NCBI RefSeq assembly: GCF_963921235.1
Contig: NC_086097.1
Coordinates: 49,044,001-49,108,000, forward strand
Origin: Mobula hypostoma
Taxonomy: Eukaryota
Reading direction: 5' to 3'
Length of the DNA: 64,000 nt
Shown: positions 1 to 12,321 of the stretch, in pieces
Layout: the number at the start of each line of letters is the position of its first letter
Numbering within the stretch: the stretch's first letter is position 1
The notes under the pieces: generated by a model
Seen by the model: the letters and a program-made list of their open reading frames with translations, nothing else
Database searches by the model: none
Told to the model about the DNA's origin: nothing
Translations under genes and position numbers: made by a program

Positions 1-1310
1 ATTCCCAGATCTCTTTGTTCTATCGCACTCCTCAATGCCCTACCATTCGCTGTGTAAGACCAACCCTAGTTAGTTCTACTGAAGTGCAAGATCTTGCACT
101 TGTCTGCAATAATTCAATCTGCCATTTTTTCAGCTGGCCCAGATCCCGCTGCAAGCCATGGTAGGTTTCCTTGTTGTCATCCACAAATTTGCTGATCCAG
201 TTAACCACATTACCATCCAGATGATTGATATATAAGACAAACAACAACAGACACAACAACAGTCCCTGCGGCACTACACTAGTCACAGGCCTTCAGTCAG
301 AGAGGCAACCATAGAATCTACTACCCCTCTCTGGCTTCTCCCACAAAGCCAATGTTTAATCCAATTCATTATCTTACCTTGAATGCCGAATGACTGAACC
401 TTCTTGACTAACCTCCCTTGTGAGATCTTGTCAAATAACTTGCAAAAGCCCATGTAGACAATATCCACCATCTTGTCTTCATCCCCTTTCCGGGTAACTT
501 CCTCATAAAACTCTATAAGATCAGTTAGACGTGCCCTACCAAAGTCATGTTGACTATCCTTAATCCGGCCATGTCTGAACAAATACTTGTATATCTGGTC
601 TCTTAGAATATGTCAGCCTATAATTTCCTACTTTATGTTTAGAGCCTGACTTAAATAGTAAAACAACATTGGCTATCCTGGTACTTCACCTGTGCTAAGG
701 ATGATTTAAACATCTCTGCTAAGGCCAAGGCAATTTCTGCACCTGCATCCTACAGGGTCCGAGGAACATTTTGTCTGGCCCTGAGGATTTATCCACCCTA
801 ATTTTCCTCAGTACAGCAAACACCTCCTCCTCTGAAATCTGTACAGGGTCTAAGGAATCAATGCGCTTTGCCTCACTTCTAAAGACTCTATGTACATCTC
901 TGAGTAAATACAAATGCAAGACATTAATTTAAGATCTCCCCCGTCTCTTTTGGCTCCACACATGGATTACCACTCTGATCTTCCAGAGGACCAATTTTGT
1001 CCCTTGCAATTCTTTTGCTCCTAACATACCTGTAGAAACCCTTAGGATTCTCTATCAGCTTGTCTGCTAGAGCAACCTCATGCCTTCTTTTAGCCCTCTT
1101 GCTATCTTTCTTAAGTGTTCTGTTGTACTTCTTAAACTCCATAAGCACCTCATTTGTTCCTACCTGCCTATACCTGCTCTGCTCCTCTTTTTTTTTACTA
1201 AGGGCATCAACATCCCTTGAAAACCAAGGTTCCCTACACGTGTTAACTTTACCTTTTATTCTGACAGGCTTTGTACACTCAGAATTGGACTTTTGAAGGC
1301 CTCCCACCAC
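1..1310 (-). mobile_element. Degraded CR1 LINE fragment (RT region)
   Basis: Frameshifted ORFs with VPQG..LFVLYIN, SKFVDD and PKGFYRYVRSKR; similar to the CR1 at 9872-12321. Confidence 0.9.
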
Positions 1311-1379
1311 TTTTACTTATATACCTTTTACTTTATCTTCCTCCTTCTCTTTCTCCTTCCAGCATATTCTTCCTTCTGC

Positions 1380-1912
1380 AACACACACACACACAATGCT
1401 GGGGGTCTCAGCAGGTCAGGTAGCATCAACGCAAATGAATAAACAGCTGACTTTTTGTGCCGAGACCTTTCATCAGGACTGGAAAGGAAGGGGGAAGGCG
1501 CCAGAATAAGGAGTTGGGCTGAGAAGAAGGAATCTGATCAGAGAGGAAAATAGGCCATGGGAGAAAGGGAACAAGGAGCGTCACCGGGGGAGGTGATAAG
1601 CAGTTGAGGAGAAGAGACTAGAAGCCAGAGTGAGAAATGGAAGGTGAGGGAAGGGGGAGGGGAAAAGAGAAAAATAATTACTGGAATTTGAAATCGATGC
1701 CATCAGGTTCGAGGCTACCTAAATGGAATATGAGGTGTTGCTCCTCCACCCTGAGAATGGCTTCATCATGACAAAAGAGGAGGCCATGGATTGGCATGTC
1801 AGAATGGGAATAGGAATAGGAATTAAAACGGTTGTCCACTGGGAAATTCCGCTTTAGGCAGACGGAGCTGAGAAGCTCGAAAAAGTGATCCTCCAATTTA
1901 TGTTGGTCCTCC
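1380..1912 (-). mobile_element. Penelope-like element 3' fragment (GIY-YIG C-terminus plus terminal repeat)
   Basis: EEQHLIFHLGSLEPDG peptide; acacacaatgctgg...cagcaggtcagg terminus; decayed hammerhead motif near 1446-1482. Confidence 0.8.
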
Positions 1913-2104
1913 AATGTATGTTTGTCTTCTGTTTGCTGACATTGTACTCTGTTTGAACCAACACTGTACCTTATTTTCCCAACCTTGTCTAGGTACATTA
2001 AGACCATACCATTCTACTGTTACTCAGGATTTCACTGCTCTTCATTTACAAGATATTTCCAGTGAAGATTTCCCACTAACATTTGAAAGCACTCTGCACG
2101 CAAA

Positions 2105-2134
2105 ATGCATAAAACAAATGTGTTGCCAACAAAA
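2105..2134 (+). CDS. NRAC: Candidate first coding exon of NRAC-like gene (MHKTNVLPTK)
   Basis: ATG at 2105 with A at -3 and an in-frame upstream TGA (2084-2086). Phase-0 donor AAA|gtgagt at 2135 joins in frame to the exon at 12478. Possible acceptor tttacaag| at 2052. No protein homology is recognised in this segment. Confidence 0.45.
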
Positions 2135-2727
2135 GTGAGTCACAAACAGGTACTATTTTTGAATTTGCCAACAAGGGAGATTAAGTATGAAAGACGCAGA
2201 TGACTGTTGTTTATTTTTATGGTCCATTAAGGAAAATCCAATCAGGTCAAACCAAATACTTGATCAGCAAGACTGACCCTATTATCTTTTCTAATAATCG
2301 AAATTGCTTTACCTTTAAATTTTCTTCTGTCATTTCTTCACAAGAAAGGACTAAAAGATTTGAATTTGGTATGAATTTGGAAATTTTAGCAGAATCAGGA
2401 TATACTCTTCTCAAAGTACATATCCAAGAATGTTTTAAATGTAAAATAAGTTTCTGCTCTGAAGTTTGTAAGTTACGGAAGTCTGCCACTCTGTGGGTAA
2501 AAAAACCTCTCCCTCATCTTCTTCTCTAATCTTTCCATTAAATTATTTTAAATCTACATATGCTTCCTAGTTTTTATGTTAAGGGAAACAGATCCTTTCT
2601 ATTCCCCTTGTCTAGTTCTCTTATGGTTCTATACAACTCTCCCCTTAGTCTCCTGTGTTCTAAAAAATTACACTGGAGTGCTCTTTTCAGTTACCTGATG
2701 AGGTAACCATGGCCTCTGACCAGGAGC

Positions 2728-2788
2728 AGATGTCATCAGGTGGTGCCTAACCTTTATAGAGTGTTTCGATCCTTAACCACGACACTCT
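2728..2788 (-). ncRNA. Candidate non-circularly permuted hammerhead ribozyme in the HERO-like 3' end
   Basis: Minus strand reads AGAGUGU-C-GUGGU uaa GGAUC-GAA-ACACUCU (13 nt) ACCAC-CUGAUGA-CAUCU. Stem III 7 bp, stem I 5 bp, stem II 4 pairs after a C-C opposition. Confidence 0.7.
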
Positions 2789-5131
2789 CCAGTTGGTGGG
2801 TCAGCAGTAGTGGCCAAGTCACTGCCCATCTGCTCCTGACTTCCAGAAAGAGGCTTTCTGCTTCCTCTCTCATCCTGCGAGCTGCTTGGTTTTTGCTCTT
2901 TTCATCAAGGCCCAGCACAGACAGCCACCTCCATGCTGACCTTGCAGGGTACCCTCTATATCCTATCTCCATGGGGAATAGCCATGCCTCCATCCTTTGT
3001 CCCTGCACTCCCGGACTAAGGACTCGTATTTCAGGGCCTTCCTCTCGTGAGCCTCCTTGCATTCTTCCTCCCATGATACTGAGAGCTCCAGCGGATGATT
3101 TTCTTGTCTTTGGTGGACCACAATACGATGTCTGGTTGAAGTGTGGTTTGCACTACCTCTGGAAACTGCAGCTTCCTCCCCATGTTGACCCTCATCTCCC
3201 ATGATTTGGCAGTTTGCAGCAGACTGGATTTGGGCCTTTTTCATATGACTGATGGGGCCTTCTCCTTGATGAAAATGACTGCCTTGTTTACCTCTCTGCC
3301 AGCTGATTTCTTTTTACAGCTCTCCCACTCCAGTGTGTTAGCAAGGGACAGCAGCAAGGGACCTCGTCGCGGCACCACCTGTACAGTCCTTCTGTTAAAG
3401 TTGTTTTGCATCCTGACAGTATGTGTGCCAGTGAACCCTGCTGACCACAAAGCTTGCATTTAGGGTCTTCTTCTCAGCCCCCATGCGTCCTCTTGTGATG
3501 GTGTAGGGAGGGTGCCATACACAGACCGCAGGAGGAAAGAAATGCGGCAGGGCTCCACTCTCCAAAGCTCTGTGCTTGGGAAGATCCCATTTTGTCCAGG
3601 CACCCTATGACCCCAACTTCACTTCCTTTGATACCCACCTTCTGTCCTCATAGTTCCGTACCTCTGCGTGGACCATGTCTCGCCTATCCTATGCCTTTGG
3701 AATGGTGCCGAGCTGAGGCCTTGCCATCCCAGGCATGGGTTGCCAATTATGTCTCTCAATGCAGGGACCTCACTGCCTGGTCTATGGCCGAGTTGGTGGC
3801 CCACTTTCAACCCGATCTTGTTGGAACTCCCACTTGGTTTATTAGCTTGTTATCGTAGCTCCTCACTGTTAACACAACTCTACATTTTGCCACCTTAAAC
3901 TCCTCCACTAACAATGACAACGGGAGCTGTAGCTGGCCTGATCTTATGTAAAGCCCCACTGAACAAAAACTTTGGGGGAGTCCCCAGCCACCTCCGCAGG
4001 TGCTTGATGACTTTCCTCTCGATGCCTTCTACAGTGGTCATGGGGAACTTGTACACTGGGAAAAACTAGAGCAGCCTTGGTAGAAGATCATGTTGGTAGA
4101 GCTATGTTTTAAATTTACCAGGGAGACTGACTTTGTCGATCTTTTTCAGCCACTCTTCATTCTGCTTTACAGAGTCAGTGATGTTGGTGCTGTCCGTTAT
4201 TGCTGCATTAAAGTGCTTTCCAAGACATTCTACTGGGTTGTCCTCTATAGAAGGAATGACTTCTCCCTGTACTTGAAGACTGATCTGACTATTAATCTTG
4301 CCCTTTTTGATCACCATGTTTCTAGACTTCCTGGCCTTGAAGGCCTTCCTAGCCCCAATAGCTAGCTTGTCCAGGGTTTCCAATACCCATCTTGCTTGGA
4401 CATGGGTTAGAGTGGTTACCGTGATGTCATCCATGAACCCTGTATTGCAGGTTGGTGAATGCTGGGCTCCAACACTCGGTCTCGGGTTACACCTGCTGCT
4501 GCTGATATGAGGAGGTTCATACCCATGACAAACAAGATGGGGGAGATGGTACAGCCGGTTGGAATCCCTTTTTGGAGGTCTTGCCAGCTGGTTATAAAGT
4601 GAGCTGAAGAGAAGCATAGCTTGATTCCTACTAGGTAGCTGGTGATCATGTCTTGCGTGATTGGTGGGATAAGGTAGTGGTCCAGGCCAGCTGGATGAGG
4701 ACTTGTGGAACTGGTCCGTAGGCGTTGGCTGGGCCTAACCAGACAACTGACTGTTAGGTCTCCTTTCTTCTGTCTGGCCTCGTGGATCAATTAGCTGATT
4801 ATGGAAGTGTGTTCAAGGCACCCAGAAACACCCGCGGTGCCACCTTTCTGGGTGGATACAGTGGTTCTCCATTAAGTAAGAGGTCAGCCTTTTCACAGGC
4901 ACCGAGAAGAATATCTTGCACTCCATGCTAAGGAGGGAGATTGTCCTAACAGGGTGATTGTAGAGGAATTTTCGTCCTTGTGGACATAGCATCCTTCAGC
5001 CATTTTCCAGCTTGGTGGGATAGAGTATTACTCCAAATTTTCCTCATTATCTTTCACAACCTTGTAGTGTATAACACTTGGTTCTGGGGTGGCAGATGAC
5101 TTAGCATTCTCTCTTGATGATATCCTGGGCC

Positions 5132-6581
5132 TCATGCCACTTTTTGAAAAAGGAGGGAGAGAGAAACCGGGGAATTATAGACCGGTTAGCCTAACGTCGG
5201 TGGTGGGGAAACTGCTGGAGTCAGTTATCAAAGATGTGATAACAGCACATTTGGAAAGCGGTGAAATCATTGGACAAAGTCAACATGGATTTGTGAAAGG
5301 AAAATCATGTCTGACGAATCTCATAGAATTTTTTGAGGATGTAACTAGTAGAGTGGATAGGGGAGAACCAGTGGATGTGGTATATTTGGATTTTCAGCTT
5401 TTGACAAGGTCCCACACAGGAGATTAGTGTGCAAACTTAAAGCACACGGTATTGGGGGTAAGGTATTGGTGTGGGTGGAGAATTGGTTAGCAGACAGGAA
5501 GCAAAGAGTGGGAATAAACGGGACCTTTTCAGAATGGCAGGCGGTGACTAGTGGGGTACCGCAAGGCTCAGTGCTGGGACCTCGGTTGTTTACAATATAT
5601 ATTAATGACTTGGATGAGGGAATTAAATGCAGCATCTCCAAGTTTGCGGATGACACGAAGCTGGGCGGCAGTGTTAGCTGTGAGGAGGATGCTAAGAGGA
5701 TGCAGGGTGACTTGGATAGGTTGGGTGAGTGGGCAAGTTCATGGCAGATGCAATTTAATGTGGATAAATGTGAAGTTATCCACTTTGGTGGCAAAAATAG
5801 GAAAACAGATTATTATCTGAACGGTGGCCGATTAGGAAAAGGGGAGGTGCAACGAGACCTGGGTGTCATTATACACCAGTCATTGAAAGTGGGCATGCAG
5901 GTACAGCAGGTGGTGAAAAAGGCAAATGGTATGCTGGCATTTATAGCGAGAGGATTCGAGTACAGGAGCAGGGAGGTACTACTGCAGTTGTACAAGGCCT
6001 TGGTGAGACCACACCTGGAGTATTGTGTGCAGTTTTGGTCCCCTAATCTGAGGAAAGACATCCTTGCCATAGAGGCAGTACAAAGAAGGTTCACCAGATT
6101 GATTCCTGGGATGGCAGGACTTTCATATGAAGAAAGACTGGATGAACTAGGCTTGTACTCGTTGGAATTTAGAAGATTGAGGGGGGATCTGATTGAAACG
6201 TATAAAATCCTAAAGGGATTGGACAGGCTAGATGCAGGAAGATTGTTCCTGATGTTGGGGAAGTCCAGAACGAGGGGTCACAGTTTGAGGATAAAGGGGA
6301 AGCCTTTTAGGACTGAGATTAGGAAAAACTTCTTCACACAGAGAGTGGTGAATCTGTGGAATTCTCTGCCACAGGAAACAGTTGAGGCCGGTTCATTGGC
6401 TATTTTTAAGAGGGAATTAGATATGGCCCTTGTGGCTACGGGGATCAGGGGGTATGGAGGGAAGGCTGGTGTAGGGTTCTGAGTTGGATGATCAGCCATG
6501 ATCATAATAAATGGCGGTGCAGGCTTGAAGGGCCGAATGGCCTACTCCTGTACCTATTTTCTATGTTTCTATGTTTCTATG
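5132..6581 (+). mobile_element. 5'-truncated young CR1 LINE inserted in the HERO-like element
   Basis: RT with GVPQGSVLGP, KFADDTK and RPHLEYCVQFW; (TTTCTATG)n tail at about 6558-6581. Confidence 0.95.
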
Positions 6582-7545
6582 GGCTGTTCCACCTTCAGTT
6601 CAGTTGCTGGGATTCTTGATTGGTGGACTTTTGGATTGAACTCTAGTCCCTGATTCCTACAGGGATCGTTGTGTGATTCCCACAAAAATTCTTCCATCTC
6701 CTGCTTTGGGCTGGCTAGGGTGCCAGATTTCCACTGGCTAAGAAGAGCCGTGGTGAACCTGAATGGGTTTTTAAACAAACTGTGCTCTCCTTCTCTCTTT
6801 CTCCCTTCTTCACTTTTGCAGCTGCTCCACCCTCCTGAGCTTGTGCAGCCGTTGCTACGACTTGCTGGCTAGAACTTTGACACCTTTTTCGTCAAGTGGA
6901 CTGATTTTGAATTGTTGTTCAAGGCCTTTATCTCTCTTCTCAGGTGGCGAATTTCCCTTTCCCTCCTGTTTGGTTGCCATCATGGTTTAAGATCCCCTTT
7001 ACTCTCCTTTAGGCCGAACGGCTTTTTAGCAAAGTTGAACACAACAGCTGTGAGGGAGTAGATTTTCTTGTAGACAGGTCCTACCAATGTCACTTCCAAG
7101 ATGCAATCAGGTCGTCATCAAACTGCTTCCAAGATACATTGTCTGATGATCTAGGCCATCTGATCCTCTCTTTCCTTGATGAATGGACTAGGGTGTCAGA
7201 GGGGTCACTCAGCTGATCTCTTCTTTTCAACTGGGGCAGCTCAGATGTGGAGAGGTCTTCAACTCTGTGGGTGCTTCCTGGCTGAAGATCTCTCCGCACC
7301 TGAGCTGCTCCATGCCAAAGAAGAGTTCTCCATCGTCTCACCGGATGCTGAGTCTGTGCGCCGCACTGGAGTTGCCTTCGTTCCACAGCTGGACCTCCTT
7401 CGGTGTATCTTGAGGCCTTTGATGTTTCTGCACATTTTGCCGCAATGACACTTTACAATGAATGCCTTCCTGGTCAGTGTTGTTTGCTTGAGCCTTCTCA
7501 TGATCATATTTCCAGTCCTGGCCATTGCTGTTACATTCATCCCAT

Positions 7546-8130
7546 TCAATATATGTCCGCCAGATATTCAAGTTTGGGCAACATCCTTGCATCCTCTTTA
7601 GGTTAATCATTTCTTCCTTGTAATGTGCAGGTGTACGATATGCAACTATTTCTAACATAACCTGTCTTATGTCCTTCGCCTTTCCTCATAAGAATGCCTT
7701 CCTAACCACCTTTTTATGTGCCTTGCTGCCTTTGGCATTTTTGATGTATACTCCAGGAATACCACTCACTTATTGTCTATACCCTTATATGCTTTTACCA
7801 TTTTTTCTGCTGAATATACCAAACCATTTATATCTTACTGGAGTTGAAAGCTTGACTTCTTGGTCCTATCCCAAACTTAGGTCCAGATTGTATATTTTCA
7901 ACAAATTTCCTGTATGTGGCCCCTACATTTCCAAGTCTAAATTATTACATTTTGTAGAAAGCAATGGACCAAAAGCTTTGTGAATCTCCACTGGTAACAG
8001 TCTTCCATTCTTAAAAGCACCCATAAATCACTACCTTTGCTTTCTGCTATTGAACCTATTTTGGAGCTAATTAGCACATCTCCAGGAATTCCATTAATTT
8101 TCTCTGCTTGGTGCCCTGTCACACAGGATC
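7546..8130 (-). mobile_element. Old CR1 fragment (continuation of the CR1 at about 2440-2667 that hosts the HERO-like element)
   Basis: Decayed CR1 RT-like sequence (ggcaacatccttg..., ctccactggtaacagtc). Confidence 0.6.
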
Positions 8131-8168
8131 TTAATAAAAACCAAGCTAAAATAACAGGCTATATCAAA

Positions 8169-8400
8169 AACACAAGAAAGTCTTCAAGTGCTGGAAATCC
8201 AAAGCAACACACACAAAATGCTGGAGGAGTTCAGCAGGTCAGGCAGCATCTATGGGTAAGAGTAAACAGTTGACACTTCAGGCCAAGACCCTTCTTAAGT
8301 CGTGATGAAGGGTCTCGACCCTAAACATCAACTTTTTACTCTTTTCCATAAACACTGCACAGCCTGTTGAGCTCCTCCAGTATTTTGTGTGTTGCTTTGA
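8169..8400. mobile_element. Palindromic pair of Penelope-like termini
   Basis: caacacacacaaaatgctggagg... and ...cctccagtattttgtgtgttg in inverted orientation. Imperfect 10-bp TSD ctatatcaaa / ctgtatcaaa. Confidence 0.75.
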
Positions 8401-8671
8401 CTGTATCAAACCCTCTGCCCTTACTAACCCATCGTTATCTCAGTTAAAAATTCAACTAAGTTAGTCAACAATAACCTTCTCCTGACTAAACCCATCCTGA
8501 TTACCCTATGTTCTTCTAAACGAACATTTAACTTTCCTTTAGGGTTAATTTATTAATGATATCAAACTAACTGGCCTGTAATTGTTTGTTTTTTCCTCAC
8601 TCCATCTTTAAGTAAAAGAGATCATTAGCAGTCCTTCAAATATCTGGCACCACTGATAACTGAAAAATTAA

Positions 8672-9800
8672 TCAGAATCAGGCTTATTATCACTGATAAA
8701 TGTTATGTCTTATGGTAGCAATACAGTGCAAAAGGTATACGGTACAAGAAAATAAATAGTGCAAGTAAAGAATAGTGAGGTAGTATTCATGGGTCTATGA
8801 ACAATTCAGAAATCTGATAGTAGAGGAGAAGAAGCTATTCATAAAACTTAGAGTGTGGGTCATTACGCTCCTGTACCACCACTGCAATAGCCCTAATGTA
8901 AAGAGGGCGTGTCCCAGATGATGAAAGTTCTTAATGACAGACGCTGCCTTCCAGAAGCACCCCCTGATGAAGGCGTCCTTGATGGCAGGGCAGGTTGTGC
9001 TCACAATGGAGATGGTTGAGCCTTCAACCCTCTGCAACCCCTCTCAAACCTGCACACTGGAGTCTCTATACCAGCTCTGATGCAACCACACACAAAATGC
9101 TGGAGGAACTCAGCGGGCCAGGCAGCGTCTACAGTTGACATTTCAAGCCAGGGTAGCCTCCAACCTAATGGCATGAACATCGATTTCTCAAACCTCCAGT
9201 AATGCCCCACAACCCGTCCCCTCCTTCTCCACTTCCCATCCCCTTTTCCCTCTCTCACCTCATCCCCTTGCCTGCGTATCACCTTCCCCCCTTTTTGTAT
9301 TTTCCATGGCCTTCAGTCTCTTTCACCAATCAACTTCCCAGCTCTTTACTTTATTCCACCCCCCGCCTCCAGGTTTCACCTATCACCTGGTGGTTCTCTC
9401 TTACCTCCCCCACCTTCTAAATCTACTCCTCAGCTTTTTTTCTCCAGTCCTGCCAAACGGTTTCGGCCGGAAACGTCGACTGTACTTTTTTCCATAGAAG
9501 CTGCCTGGCCTGCTGCATTCCTCCAGTAGTTTGTGTGTGTTGCTCGGATTTCCAGCATCTGCAGATTTTCTCTTGTTTGTAATCTGATGCAACCAGTCAG
9601 AATGTTCTCCACTGCGCATCTGCAGAAATCTGCTGGAGTCTTTAGCGACATACTAAATCACCTCAAAATTCTAAATGAAGTGGAACTGATAGTGTGCTTT
9701 CCTTGAGATTGCATCAAAGCATTGGGCCCACGATAAAGCCTCTGTGATGTTGATGCCCAGGAACTTGCAGCTGCTGAAGTTCCTACCTTGATTCTTTTGA
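8672..9800 (-). mobile_element. Rex1/Babar-like LINE 3' fragment interrupted by a Penelope-like insert
   Basis: atcagaatcagg tail; KAASVIK..HHLGHALF peptide; similar to 29805-30890. Confidence 0.75.
9089..9582 (+). mobile_element. Penelope-like insertion with short inverted 5' terminus
   Basis: 13-bp TSD tctgatgcaacca (9076-9088 and 9583-9595); GSLQPNGMNIDF peptide; variant hammerhead motif at 9445-9482. Confidence 0.85.
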
Positions 9801-9871
9801 TAGAGTAGAATATATTTCATCAGGAGTTGTGGTGTTCATTCTCTGTTGATTTTGGGGAAGGAAACTCTATT

Positions 9872-12321
9872 CAGAACCATAGAACCATAGAAACTACAGC
9901 ACAGAAGCAGGCCCTTTGGCCCTTCTTGGCTATGCCGAACCATTTTCTGCCTAGTCCCACTGACCTGCACACGGACCATATCCCTCCAAACACCTCCCAT
10001 CCATGTATCTGTCCAATTTATTCTTAAATGTTAAAAAAGAACCCGCATTTACCACCTTGTCTGGCAGCTCATTCCATACTCCCACCACTCTCTGTGTGAA
10101 GAAACCCCCCCCCCAATGTTCCCTTTAAACTTTTCCCCCCTCACCCTTAACCCATGTCCTCTGGTTTTTTTCTCCCCTTGCCTCAGTGGAAAAAGCCTGC
10201 TTGCATTCACTCTATCTATACCCGTCATAATTTTATATACCTTTATCAAATCTCCCCTCATTCTTCTACGCTCCAGGGAATAAAGTCCTAACCTATTCAA
10301 CCTTTCTCTGTAACTCAGTTTCTCATGTCCCGGCAACAGCCTTGTAAACCTTCTCTGCACTCTTTCAACCTTATTTATATCCTTCCTGTAAATTGGTGAC
10401 CAAAACTGAACACAATACTCCAGATTCGGCCTCACCAATGCCTTATACAACCTCATCATAACATTCCAGCTCTTATACTCAATACTTTGATTAATAAAGG
10501 CCAATGTACCAAAAGCTCTCTTTACGACCCTATCTACCTGTGATGACACTTTTAGGGAATTGTGTATCTGTATTCCCAGATCCCTCTGTTCCACTGCACT
10601 CCTCAGTGCCTTACCATTAACCCTGTATGTTCTACGTTGGTTTGTCCTTCCAACGTGCAATACCTCACACTTGTCAGTATTAAACTCCATCTGCCATTTT
10701 TCAGCCCATTTTTCCAGCTGGTCCAAGCCCCTCTGCAGGCTCTGAAAACCTTCCTCACTGTCTACTGCACCTCCAGTCTTTGTATCATCAGCAAACTTGC
10801 TGATCCAATTTACCACATTATCATCCAGATCATTGATATAGATGACAAATAACAATGGACCCAGCACTGATCCCTGTGGCACACCACTAGTCACAGGCCT
10901 CCACTCAGAGAAGCAATTCTCTACCACCACTCTCTGGCTTCTTCCATCGAGCCAATGACTAATCCAATTTACCACCTCTCCATGTATACCTAGCGACTGA
11001 ATTTTCCTAACTAACCTCCCATGCGGGACCTTGTCAAAGGCCTTACTGAAGTCCATGTAGACAATATCCACTGCCTTCCCTTCATCCACTTTCCTGGTAT
11101 CCTCCTCGAAAAACTCCAACAGATTGGTCAAACATGACCTACCACGCACAAAGCCATGTTGACTCTCCCTAATAAGCCCCTGTCTATCCAAATGCTTGTA
11201 GATTCTGTCTCTTAGTACTCCCTCCAATAACTTACCTACTACTGATGTTAAACTCACCGGCCTATAATTTCCCGGATTACTTTTCGATCCTTTTTTAAAC
11301 AACGGAACAACATGAGCCACTCTCCAATCCTTCGGCACTTCACCCGTAGACAGCGACATTTTAAATATTTCTGCCAGGGCCCCTGCAATTTCAACACTAG
11401 TCTCCTTCAAGGTCCGAGGGAACACTCTGTCAGGTCCCAGGGATTTATCCACTTTAATTTTCCGCAAGACAGCAAGCACCTCCTCCTTTTCAATCTGTAC
11501 ATTTTCCATGGTCTCACTACTTGATTCCCTCAATTCCATAGATTTCATGCCAGCTTCCTTAGTAAACACAGACGCAAAAAACCTATTTAAGATCTCCCCC
11601 ATTTCCTTTGGTTCCTCACAAAGCCGACCACTCTGATCTTCAAGAGGACCAATTTTATCCCTTACAATCCTTTTGCTCTTAATATACTTGTAAAAGCTCT
11701 TTGGATTATCCTTCACTTTGACTGCCAAGGCAACCTCATGTCTTCTTTTTGCCCTCCTGATTTCTTTCTTAAGTATTTTCTTGCACTTCTTATACTCCTC
11801 AAGCACCTGATTTACCCCCGTTTCCTATACATTTCATACAACTCCCTCTTCTTCTTTATCAGAGTTGCAATATCCCTTGAGAACCAAGGTTCCTTATTCC
11901 TATTCAATTTGCCTTTAATCCTGACAGGAACATACAAACTCTGCACTCTCAAAATTTCCCCTTTGAAGGCTTCCCACCTACCAATCACATCTTTGCCAGA
12001 GAACAACCTGTCCCAATCCACGCTTTTTAGATCCTTTCTCATTTCTTCAAATTTGGCCTTCTTCCAGTTCAGAACCTCAACCCTAGGACCAGATCTATCC
12101 TTGTCCATGATCAAATTGAAACTAATGGTGTTATGATCACTGGAACCAAAGTGCTCCCCTACACAGACTTCTGTCACTTGCCCTAATTTGTTTCCTAACA
12201 GGAGATCCAATATTGCATCCCCTTTAGTTGGTCCCTCTATATACTGATTTAGAAAACTTTCCTGAACACATTTTACAAACTCTAAACCATCTAGACCCCT
12301 AACAGTATGGGACCCCTAACA
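9872..12321 (-). mobile_element. Young 5'-truncated CR1 LINE with nearly intact RT
   Basis: 585-aa ORF 10049-11806 plus an upstream endonuclease tail (SDHNTI) after one frameshift; (AGAACCAT)n tail at about 9873-9890. Confidence 0.95.

What the first reader, a model, noticed from the sequence alone, without database searches (positions are those of the whole stretch)
2728..2804. Scrambled (non-circularly permuted) hammerhead ribozyme in the 3' end of a HERO-like retrotransposon
Seen: on minus, AGAGUGU-C-GUGGU [uaa] GGAUC-GAA-ACACUCU [auaaagguuaggc] ACCAC-CUGAUGA-CAUCU. All conserved hammerhead core nucleotides are present (CUGAUGA, GAAA, GUC cleavage triplet). Stem III is 7 perfect bp, stem I is 5 perfect bp, and stem II has 4 pairs after a C-C opposition. 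Established: type I/II/III hammerheads are circular permutations of the order CUGANGA, GAAA, NUH. Here the order is NUH, GAAA, CUGANGA, which no circular permutation gives, so the fold must be pseudoknotted. The 3-nt linker joins the distal ends of stems I and II, which are neighbours in the hammerhead 3D fold. A fourth helix can form between upstream CUGACC (2799-2804) and linker GGUUAG (2747-2752). Inference: a self-cleaving RNA cutting between 2781 and 2780. R2-group ribozymes are classically 5' HDV-like, so a 3' hammerhead is unexpected. I recall natural non-circular hammerhead permutations being reported, so novelty must be checked against that literature.
Basis: partly seen in the sequence, partly recalled or inferred. 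Interest (0 to 1): 0.92.

Follow-up and report, generated by a model that had tools for sequence, protein, structure and literature searches.

The report
Rearranged hammerhead RNA in LINE tail
The 3' end of a family of jumping genes carries a conserved folded RNA with the complete catalytic core of the self-cutting hammerhead ribozyme, wired in an order not described before; cutting itself has not been tested.

Summary
It lies in the 150-nt 3' UTR of a decayed, 5'-truncated non-LTR retrotransposon on the minus strand: stop codon 2821-2819, 3' end 2669.

Relatives settle the fold. They are three further lineages in this genome and five metagenome lineages, down to 48% protein identity. In all 12 rows tabulated, CUGANGA, GAA, the A15.1-U16.1 pair and a non-G at position 17 are kept.

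The strand before GAAA pairs instead with an upstream strand (window 2802-2798), closed by a G-C pair. A joining helix like that of published type-CSG/SGC hammerheads also covaries. A long helix plus a hairpin sit between A9 and 10.1.

It is therefore a hammerhead-type fold of the non-circularly permuted class (Eckert et al. 2023), with the CUGANGA block split.

Cleavage is untested. Of 199 sampled copies, 0 begin at the predicted site and 187 extend upstream of it. The RNA that was copied into DNA was therefore intact there.

The parts
2827..2838 (-). P0, 5' strand (CAGGAGCAGAUG). It overlaps the last codons of the ORF.
   Evidence: It forms a 12-bp helix with 2732-2721 in the MFE fold. The helix covaries: 9 of 11 pairs show changes on both sides (helix 1).
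2819..2821 (-). Stop codon (TGA) of the retrotransposon ORF
   Evidence: The relative P0001 ends ...GADGQ. tblastn and the reading frame place the stop here.
2804..2825 (-). Hairpin Pa (GCAGUG / loop / UACUGC), between P0 and the 5' strand of stem II
   Evidence: 97.2% of cells are paired, and 2 pairs changed on both sides (helix 2). Other lineages have CUGGG/CCCAG or CUGGGG/CCCCGG.
2798..2802 (-). Stem II, 5' strand (GACCC). It stands where strand 10.x would be, but it is not joined to A9.
   Evidence: It pairs with the strand before GAAA in every lineage. Variants are GGCCC/GGGCC, GGCGC/GCGCC, GGGUU/GAUCC and GGGUC/GACCC. All 5 pairs form in 9 of the 12 rows and in 8 of the 12 rows (also, helix 3).
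2791..2796 (-). Joining helix J, 5' strand (CCAACU)
   Evidence: Complementary to 2752-2747 in the family majority. Other lineages have CCAUCA:UGAUGG, CCUCU:GGAGG, CCGGG:CCCGG and CCUGGA:UCCAGG. It has the same connectivity as the stem I/II joining helix of type-CSG.
2782..2788 (-). Stem III, 3' strand (16.7-16.1, AGAGUGU)
   Evidence: 7 perfect pairs here. U-A changes to C-G at 15.5/16.5 in 4 rows (helix 4).
2781..2781 (-). Position 17 (C). The predicted cleavage is 3' of it, between 2781 and 2780.
   Evidence: Placed by analogy with hammerheads. Position 17 is A, C or U and never G in the 12 rows. Cleavage was not tested.
2776..2780 (-). Stem I, 5' strand (GUGGU)
   Evidence: It pairs with 2744-2740. 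Other lineages have GUGGA/UUCAC, UGAUGA/UCAUCA and UGAUGU/ACAUCA.
2773..2775 (-). 3-nt linker (UAA) from stem I to stem II
   Evidence: The linker is 2-5 nt in other lineages. Type-SGC variants have U.A here and type-CSG has UUAA.
2768..2772 (-). Stem II, 3' strand (11.x; GGAUC here, GGGUC in the family majority)
   Evidence: The A at 2770 is private to a minority of copies and breaks one pair with 2800.
2765..2767 (-). G12 A13 A14
   Evidence: Invariant columns in alignment A1. Present in all 12 rows.
2758..2764 (-). Stem III, 5' strand (15.1-15.7, ACACUCU)
2747..2752 (-). Joining helix J, 3' strand (GGUUAG here, GGUUGG in the majority)
2740..2744 (-). Stem I, 3' strand (ACCAC)
2733..2739 (-). 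CUGAUGA (C3-A9)
   Evidence: CUGA.GA is present in all 12 rows. Position 7 is C, U or A.
2721..2732 (-). P0, 3' strand (CAUCUGCUCCUG).
2689..2708 (-). Terminal hairpin of the 3' UTR (GGUUACC / UCAUCA / GGUAACU)
   Evidence: Present in the MFE fold. Hairpins at the same place with other sequences are seen in the other lineages.
2669..4790 (-). The decayed retrotransposon copy, as far as it was mapped. The 3' end is at 2669. The endonuclease and C-terminal coding remains are at about 2856-4434. A weak RVT_1 match lies at 4419-4790. The copy probably continues to about 7600.
   Evidence: All 29 other loci share a sharp boundary at 2669-2671. tblastn with P0001 matches in three frames. RVT_1 E = 0.0056. 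A zinc-finger-like ORF at 7262-7567 resembles that of L121.

Best explanation
The motif is the core of a conserved RNA domain of about 118 nt (2838-2721 in the window). The domain spans the end of the ORF and the 3' UTR of a clade of non-LTR retrotransposons that carry a restriction-like endonuclease. It folds as a hammerhead.

Stem II is made by the strand before GAAA and an upstream strand, and is closed by a G-C pair in the place of G10.1-C11.1. A joining helix ties the far ends of stems I and II, as in the published type-CSG and type-SGC hammerheads.

The chain is wired in a new way. It runs 10.x, 16.x, N17, 1.x, 11.x, GAA, 15.x, 2.x, CUGANGA. Between A9 and 10.1 sit a long closing helix (P0) and a hairpin (Pa), which form a four-way junction with stem II and the core.

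Most likely the intact masters of these families self-cleave 3' of position 17; in the window that is between 2781 and 2780. The window's own copy is an old, decayed copy with one stem II pair and one joining-helix pair broken.

Shown: the sequence, its conservation, and covariation of six helices. Inferred: the hammerhead tertiary fold, catalysis, and any role. Candidate roles are processing of read-through or tandem co-transcripts, or a cleavage/ligation step.
For: 1. Core. CUGA.GA, GAA, the A15.1-U16.1 pair and a non-G at position 17 are present in all 12 rows. These rows cover family A, lineages B, C1, C2 and D of this genome, and the metagenome relatives L123, L124, L126, L140 and L127. 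The only core places that vary are those free in hammerheads: N7 (C/U/A) and N17 (A/C/U).

2. Helices. On alignment A1, the model of P0, Pa, stem II, stem III and stem I has 90.2% of cells paired, against 33-50% when the partners are slid. It has 17 pairs with changes on both sides, against 4-8 when slid. None of 500 shuffles reaches it.
- Stem I appears as GUGGU/ACCAC, GUGGA/UUCAC, UGAUGA/UCAUCA and UGAUGU/ACAUCA.
- Stem II appears as GACCC/GGGUC, GGCCC/GGGCC, GGCGC/GCGCC, GGGUU/GAUCC and GGGUC/GACCC.
- The closing pair of stem II is G-C in 10 of 12 rows.

3. The joining helix covaries. The layout [16.x N17 1.x, short linker, 11.x GAAA 15.x] matches the type-SGC and type-CSG alignments of Eckert et al..

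4. In the little-diverged lineage D, a mean of 2.22 of 94 copies differ per position, and the core is intact in 73 of 94 copies. The nested helices appear in the MFE or centroid fold.

5. A chance origin is unlikely: 0 hits of the observed strength in 400 random windows.

6. Single extra nucleotides between A9 and 10.1 are known in natural hammerheads (PMC4209133 passages; HRIMA-1 alignment). That point of the chain therefore tolerates an insertion.
Against: - No cleavage assay exists, and no RNA ends could be read. No run is on record as RNA, and only contigs could be laid.
- Fossil copies give no sign of cut templates. In family A, 0 of 99 copies start at the site and 89 extend upstream of it. 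In lineage D, 0 of 100 start there and 98 extend upstream of it. There is no indel or substitution hotspot at the site.
- Contigs in runs guessed to be RNA bridge the site.
- Strand 10.x is not joined to A9. No hammerhead with helices inserted there has been shown to be active, so the fold may not be catalytic.
- Lineage D has a C-U mismatch at 15.4/16.4 in 81 of 94 copies.
- No Rfam hammerhead model matches at E up to 10. This is expected for a permuted order, but it gives no support.
- Only about nine lineages were compared. Several are single dead copies, and the rows are related.
- Structured, pseudoknotted 3' UTRs are what R2-type reverse transcriptases bind (PMC12222951, passages). Conservation of structure alone therefore does not show catalysis.
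Confidence: 0.6

Rival explanations
1. The domain is the structured 3' UTR element that the element's own reverse transcriptase recognises to start target-primed reverse transcription, as in R2. It does not cut itself. The hammerhead-like junction is either a relic of a ribozyme or a structural module (U-turn plus tandem G-A pairs) kept for folding and protein binding.
For: - It lies in the last 170 nt of the element, where R2 proteins bind a pseudoknotted RNA (PMC12222951 passages).
- 187 of 199 sampled copies extend upstream of the predicted site, and none starts at it.
- Contigs from runs guessed to be RNA bridge the site.
- The break between A9 and 10.1 is unprecedented for an active hammerhead.
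Against: - Every nucleotide that is invariant in hammerheads is kept across lineages in which all helices changed sequence. That includes residues with catalytic rather than structural roles (G5, G8, G12; their roles are recalled, not from a call).
- The two free positions do vary.
- A separate terminal hairpin and a conserved 3' end lie downstream and could serve as the binding site.
Confidence: 0.32
2. The fold is exactly the first reader's: a type-SGC hammerhead whose stem II is CAUCU (2732-2728) paired with GGAUC (2772-2768), plus a fourth helix CUGACC:GGUUAG.
For: - In the window copy this stem II has 4 pairs.
- The order of the core motifs and the 3-nt linker fit type SGC.
- It could be an alternative conformer in family A.
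Against: - 10.1/11.1 is unpaired in 11 of 12 rows.
- Only 1-2 of 5 pairs form in L127, C1 and C2.
- 70% of cells are paired, against 66% in shuffles (40 of 500 shuffles reach it).
- CAUCU is part of the 12-bp helix P0.
- The strand before GAAA covaries with the upstream strand instead.
Confidence: 0.03
3. The match is a chance look-alike in a decayed repeat, with no conserved structure behind it.
For: - A scan of very many windows will meet rare chance matches (my estimate is about 3e-4 per window).
- Only 12 of 99 family copies keep the motif frame.
- There is no Rfam hit.
Against: - The same core and helices recur, with compensatory changes, in lineages down to 48% protein identity and in a family with 2,169 matches to its 3'-end 30-mer.
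Confidence: 0.02

Closest known systems
Type-CSG and type-SGC hammerhead ribozymes (non-circular permutations; Eckert, Friedrich, Weinberg & Weinberg 2023, PMC10085705; sections 13-15 and supplementary alignments read)
   Same: - Same core.
- The S block is followed by the G block through a 2-5-nt linker from stem I to stem II.
- Stems I and II are 5-6 bp.
- A helix joins the other sides of stems I and II, and the core stems are pseudoknotted.
- The strand order 10.x, joining-helix strand, 16.x, N17, 1.x, linker, 11.x, GAAA, 15.x is that of type CSG.
- The order of the core motifs (S, G, C) is that of type SGC.
   Different: - The C block is split. CUGANGA with strand 2.x lies at the 3' side, and strand 10.x at the 5' side.
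- A 7-12-bp helix and a hairpin lie between A9 and 10.1. The authors assumed that blocks cannot be interrupted.
- Their examples come from metatranscriptomes with hairpin ribozymes, from soil DNA, and from one bacterium, not from eukaryotic retrotransposons.
- Theirs were shown to cleave; this one has not been tested.
Hammerheads of Penelope-like retroelements and retrozymes (Cervera & de la Pena 2014, PMC4209133; passages read)
   Same: A hammerhead core is carried by a eukaryotic retroelement and is present in thousands of genomic copies. [quoted passage not shown]
   Different: Those are type I motifs in flanking repeats of elements with a GIY-YIG endonuclease, and are often thought to act as dimers. 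This one is a permuted, monomeric, pseudoknotted domain in the 3' UTR of an element with a restriction-like endonuclease.
HDV-like ribozymes of R2 and other non-LTR retrotransposons (PMC3774820, abstract seen in a search listing)
   Same: A self-cleaving RNA belonging to a non-LTR element of the R2 kind, with the cut at the 5' edge of the ribozyme.
   Different: It is a different ribozyme class. It lies at the 5' end of the element, and its demonstrated role is freeing the element RNA from the rRNA co-transcript.
Pseudoknotted 3' UTR element bound by R2 protein (PMC12222951; passages read)
   Same: A conserved, pseudoknotted RNA in the last part of the 3' UTR of an element with a restriction-like endonuclease.
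   Different: No hammerhead core is reported there. That element is the 3' 67 nt with base triples. Binding was not tested here.

Membership tests
Hammerhead ribozyme (core definition) | C3-A9 = CUGANGA, next to stem I | tested here: met
   Present in all 12 rows, directly 3' of strand 2.x. In the window it is at 2739-2733.
Hammerhead ribozyme (core definition) | G12 A13 A14 between stems II and III, an A15.1-U16.1 pair, and a non-G at position 17 | tested here: met
   GAA and A-U are present in all 12 rows. Position 17 is A, C or U. These are invariant columns in A1.
Hammerhead ribozyme (core definition) | Three helices I, II and III around the core, supported by covariation | tested here: met
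   (helices 3, 4, 5). Stem II uses the upstream strand.
Hammerhead ribozyme (core definition) | Stem II closed by G10.1-C11.1, with strand 10.x continuous with A9 (at most 1-2 extra nt) | tested here: not met
   A G-C pair closes stem II in 10 of 12 rows. However, its G strand lies about 60-110 nt 5' of A9 in the chain, and P0 and Pa lie between them. The strand that does follow A9 does not pair with 11.x.
Hammerhead ribozyme (core definition) | Site-specific self-cleavage 3' of position 17 | not testable with these tools
   No raw RNA reads were available. Fossil copies show no ends at the site.
Hammerhead ribozyme (Rfam models) | A match to an Rfam hammerhead covariance model | tested here: not met
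   No hammerhead match at E up to 10 in the window region or in four other lineages. The models cannot represent this strand order.
Type-SGC hammerhead (Eckert et al. 2023) | Blocks in the order S, G, C, with stem II formed by the strand directly 3' of CUGANGA | tested here: not met
   The motif order S, G, C is met. The stem II pairing is not.
Type-CSG hammerhead (Eckert et al. 2023) | Blocks in the order C, S, G, with an uninterrupted C block | tested here: not met
   Strand 10.x, the S block, the G block and the joining helix are placed as in CSG. CUGANGA with strand 2.x, however, follows the G block.
HERO clade of non-LTR retrotransposons | Placement in the HERO clade by reverse-transcriptase phylogeny | not tested
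   No named reference sequences were at hand. What was seen: a weak RVT_1 match; a CCHC motif and a PD...E endonuclease-like motif in the relative P0001 (motif names recalled); and dispersed, 5'-truncated copies.

The most novel reading that the evidence does not exclude
This is a new hammerhead topology, with the CUGANGA block split from its stem II strand by a four-way junction, and it is catalytically active in a high-copy, little-diverged retrotransposon clade. Cleavage is followed by re-ligation or circularisation of the RNA. That would explain two observations at once: inserted copies run straight through the site, and copies are often found head to tail.
Probability: 0.12. Interest if true: 0.95.

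Novelty: new variant of a known kind. Interest (0 to 1): 0.85.

Why it matters
If the domain cuts, three things follow.
- It would extend the known ways of wiring a hammerhead beyond the six block orders thought possible. It would show that the core tolerates whole helices between A9 and G10.1.
- It would be the first hammerhead tied to the 3' UTR of a non-LTR retrotransposon of the R2 kind. The ribozymes known so far in those elements are 5' HDV-like ones.
- Descriptor searches that keep the three blocks intact would miss it. Similar split forms may therefore be hidden in other genomes.

If it does not cut, it is a clear case of a hammerhead fold kept for another use, probably recognition by the reverse transcriptase.

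Either result can be reached with one short transcript.

Tried and rejected
- **Rfam.** Scans at E up to 10 of the window 1-12000, of 2640-2900, and of four other lineages gave no hammerhead match.
- **Covariance model.** Further lineages were found by DNA and protein searches instead.
- **RNA evidence.** No RNA holder is listed for the stretch. Only contigs could be laid, and they cannot show RNA ends. One 219-nt contig's match ends exactly at 2780 (depth 2.5), which I do not count as evidence.
- **Copies starting at the cut site.** There are none in 99 + 100 copies. Two family A copies start at +4, which is within what chance coincidence of truncation points gives.
- **Upstream partial copies in head-to-tail pairs.** Their lengths are not capped at the site.
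- **The 8-bp complement CCUGAUGA/UCAUCAGG (2741-2734 with 2701-2694).** It is present in family A only, not in the other lineages.
- **A canonical hammerhead on the plus strand around 2697-2704.** No GAAA or stems fit (by eye).
- **More distant relatives (33-35% identity; L131, L134, L139).** No such motif was found.
- **Earlier notes of this scan.** Nothing related turned up.
- **Literature.** Four searches of the held library found no report of a hammerhead in such elements or of helices inserted between A9 and 10.1. Two further searches gave the background papers: one search found Eckert et al., and one search found the papers on G10.1-C11.1. Subscription journals are not covered.
- **Clade assignment to HERO.** Not tested.
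Full report
**What is at the coordinates.** A descriptor I wrote for this order of motifs finds this one place in the window. In 400 random 64-kb sequences of the same dinucleotide make-up it found 9 hits at loose settings, 3 at medium settings, and none of the observed strength. Rfam gives no hammerhead match at E up to 10.

**What the motif sits in.**
- The stretch belongs to a repeat with 1,438 first-look candidates in the 3.47-Gb genome.
- All 29 other loci fetched share a sharp boundary at window 2669-2671 and reach variable distances upstream. This is the pattern of a 5'-truncated non-LTR retrotransposon lying on the minus strand.
- A relative from a protein collection (P0001) has a CCHC motif and a PD...E endonuclease-like motif, and ends in ...GADGQ. 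It aligns to the window in three frames up to about 2856. The stop codon is TGA at 2821-2819.
- The motif is thus in the middle of a 150-nt 3' UTR.
- A weak RVT_1 match lies at 4419-4790.
- The clade name HERO was not tested.
- The family is old. Copies are about 80% alike, and only 12 of 99 sampled copies keep the motif frame.
- The family majority reads GUA at the site, GGGUC before GAAA, and CUGACGA, with a CpG that decays to UG or CA.

**What is known.** Eckert et al. 2023 (PMC10085705; sections 13-15 and supplementary alignments read) divide the hammerhead into three blocks: C (CUGANGA), G (GAAA) and S (the cleavage site). They describe natural non-circular orders: type SGC (583 sequences, which cleave), type CSG (which cleaves), and a single type-GCS sequence.

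**Relatives decide the fold.**
- A scan of metagenome contigs with P0001 gave 18 loci. Six of them hold the homologous 3' UTR (L123, L124 and its near-duplicate L125, L126, L140, L127), representing five lineages at 86-48% protein identity.
- Searching this genome with L127's coding DNA and protein gave lineages B, C1 and C2. It also gave a little-diverged, very abundant lineage D: 10,903 first-look candidates, and 2,169 matches to a 30-mer of its 3' end.
- In all 12 rows tabulated, CUGA.GA, GAA, the A15.1-U16.1 pair and a non-G at position 17 are present. The only core positions that vary are the two that are free in hammerheads.
- Stem III changes U-A to C-G.
- Stem I changes completely (GUGGU/ACCAC, GUGGA/UUCAC, UGAUGA/UCAUCA, UGAUGU/ACAUCA).

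It has 1-2 of 5 pairs in L127, C1 and C2. Positions 10.1/11.1 are unpaired in 11 of 12 rows, and the pairing is no better than shuffles.

**The helices that do hold.**
- The strand before GAAA covaries with an upstream strand, 2802-2798 in the window. The variants are GACCC/GGGUC, GGCCC/GGGCC, GGCGC/GCGCC, GGGUU/GAUCC and GGGUC/GACCC. A G-C pair next to G12 closes it in 10 of 12 rows.
- The bases after A9 form a long helix, P0, with a strand further upstream. It is 12 bp in the window (2838-2827 with 2732-2721) and has entirely different sequences in L127, C and D.
- A hairpin, Pa, lies between P0 and the stem II strand.
- The linker after the stem II strand pairs with the linker before stem I's 3' strand (CCAACU:GGUUGG, CCAUCA:UGAUGG, CCUCU:GGAGG, CCGGG:CCCGG, CCUGGA:UCCAGG). 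This is the joining helix of type CSG.
- On alignment A1 the five-helix model has 90.2% of cells paired, against 33-50% when slid. It has 17 pairs with changes on both sides, against 4-8 when slid. None of 500 shuffles reaches it. The two lineage C rows are out of register there for stems I and II, so these figures are underestimates.

**Reading.** The domain has all four helices and the connectivity of the permuted (CSG/SGC) class of hammerheads. The chain, however, is closed between 15.x and the joining helix, and opened between A9 and 10.1. There P0 and Pa form a four-way junction; in lineage D it has no linker nucleotides. This order is not among the six that assume unbroken blocks. Natural hammerheads do carry single extra nucleotides at that very point. 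That makes an insertion there plausible, but a catalytic fold is inferred, not shown.

**Does it cut in life?**
- I sampled copies by their last 30 bases only, so the sample is blind to where each copy begins.
- In family A, 0 of 99 copies start at the site, 89 extend upstream of it, and 10 start downstream of it.
- In lineage D, 0 of 100 copies start there and 98 extend upstream of it. There is no indel or substitution hotspot at the site.
- Contigs from runs guessed to be RNA bridge the site.
- The RNA molecules that were copied into DNA were therefore uncut there, or had been rejoined.
- This argues against efficient, irreversible cleavage of the template. It fits the rival reading that the fold serves recognition by the reverse transcriptase, as pseudoknotted 3' UTR elements do in R2.
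- It does not exclude cutting of other molecules, for example read-through or head-to-tail co-transcripts. In family A, 8 of 99 copies are followed directly by the 5' end of another copy.

**The window copy.** It keeps the core, stem I and stem III. A G-to-A change at 2770 breaks one pair of stem II, and a G-to-A change at 2748 breaks one pair of the joining helix.

**Verdict.**
- Four searches of the held library found no report of such a motif in these elements, or of this wiring.
- I rate it a new variant of a known kind, of high interest, with catalysis as the open question.

Noticed in passing
L121 (two 3' ends 5.4 kb apart), L122, L028; L046, L049, L052, L067, L068, L089, L113, L017; L127: Copies often lie head to tail. 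The 3' end of one copy, often a short 5'-truncated piece, is followed directly by the 5' end of another (...GCAAGCGACAT then CUGGUUCACCAGUGAC...). This is seen in 8 of 99 sampled family A copies and in the metagenome relative L127. It fits template jumping by R2-type reverse transcriptases (recalled), or copying of a circular template.
   Followed up: partly
window 5068-6479 (+): An unrelated LINE fragment on the other strand (RVT_1 E = 2e-19) is inserted inside the decayed element. The element seems to resume with a zinc-finger-like ORF at 7262-7567 (-), which resembles the N-terminal ORF of L121.
   Followed up: partly
window 10052-11824 (-): A 591-aa open frame with a strong reverse-transcriptase match (RVT_1 E = 1.2e-35). 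It belongs to another LINE copy.
   Followed up: no
own genome, lineage D (e.g. L151-L158, L159-L258): A very abundant, little-diverged relative of the window's element. There are 10,903 first-look candidates, and 2,169 matches to its 3'-end 30-mer. About 2.4% of copies differ per position, and most matched coding stretches have no stops. It carries the same RNA domain with the core intact in 73 of 94 copies.
   Followed up: partly
window 2846/2847 (-): The window copy lacks about 30-40 bases that most family copies have just upstream of the domain. The other copies' letters are seen as 'letters between' and as a split match.
   Followed up: no
L003/L037, stem III: One family A copy has AGAGAGU/ACUCUCU instead of AGAGUGU/ACACUCU. 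This is a double change that keeps the 15.3-16.3 pair, and may mark a subfamily.
   Followed up: no
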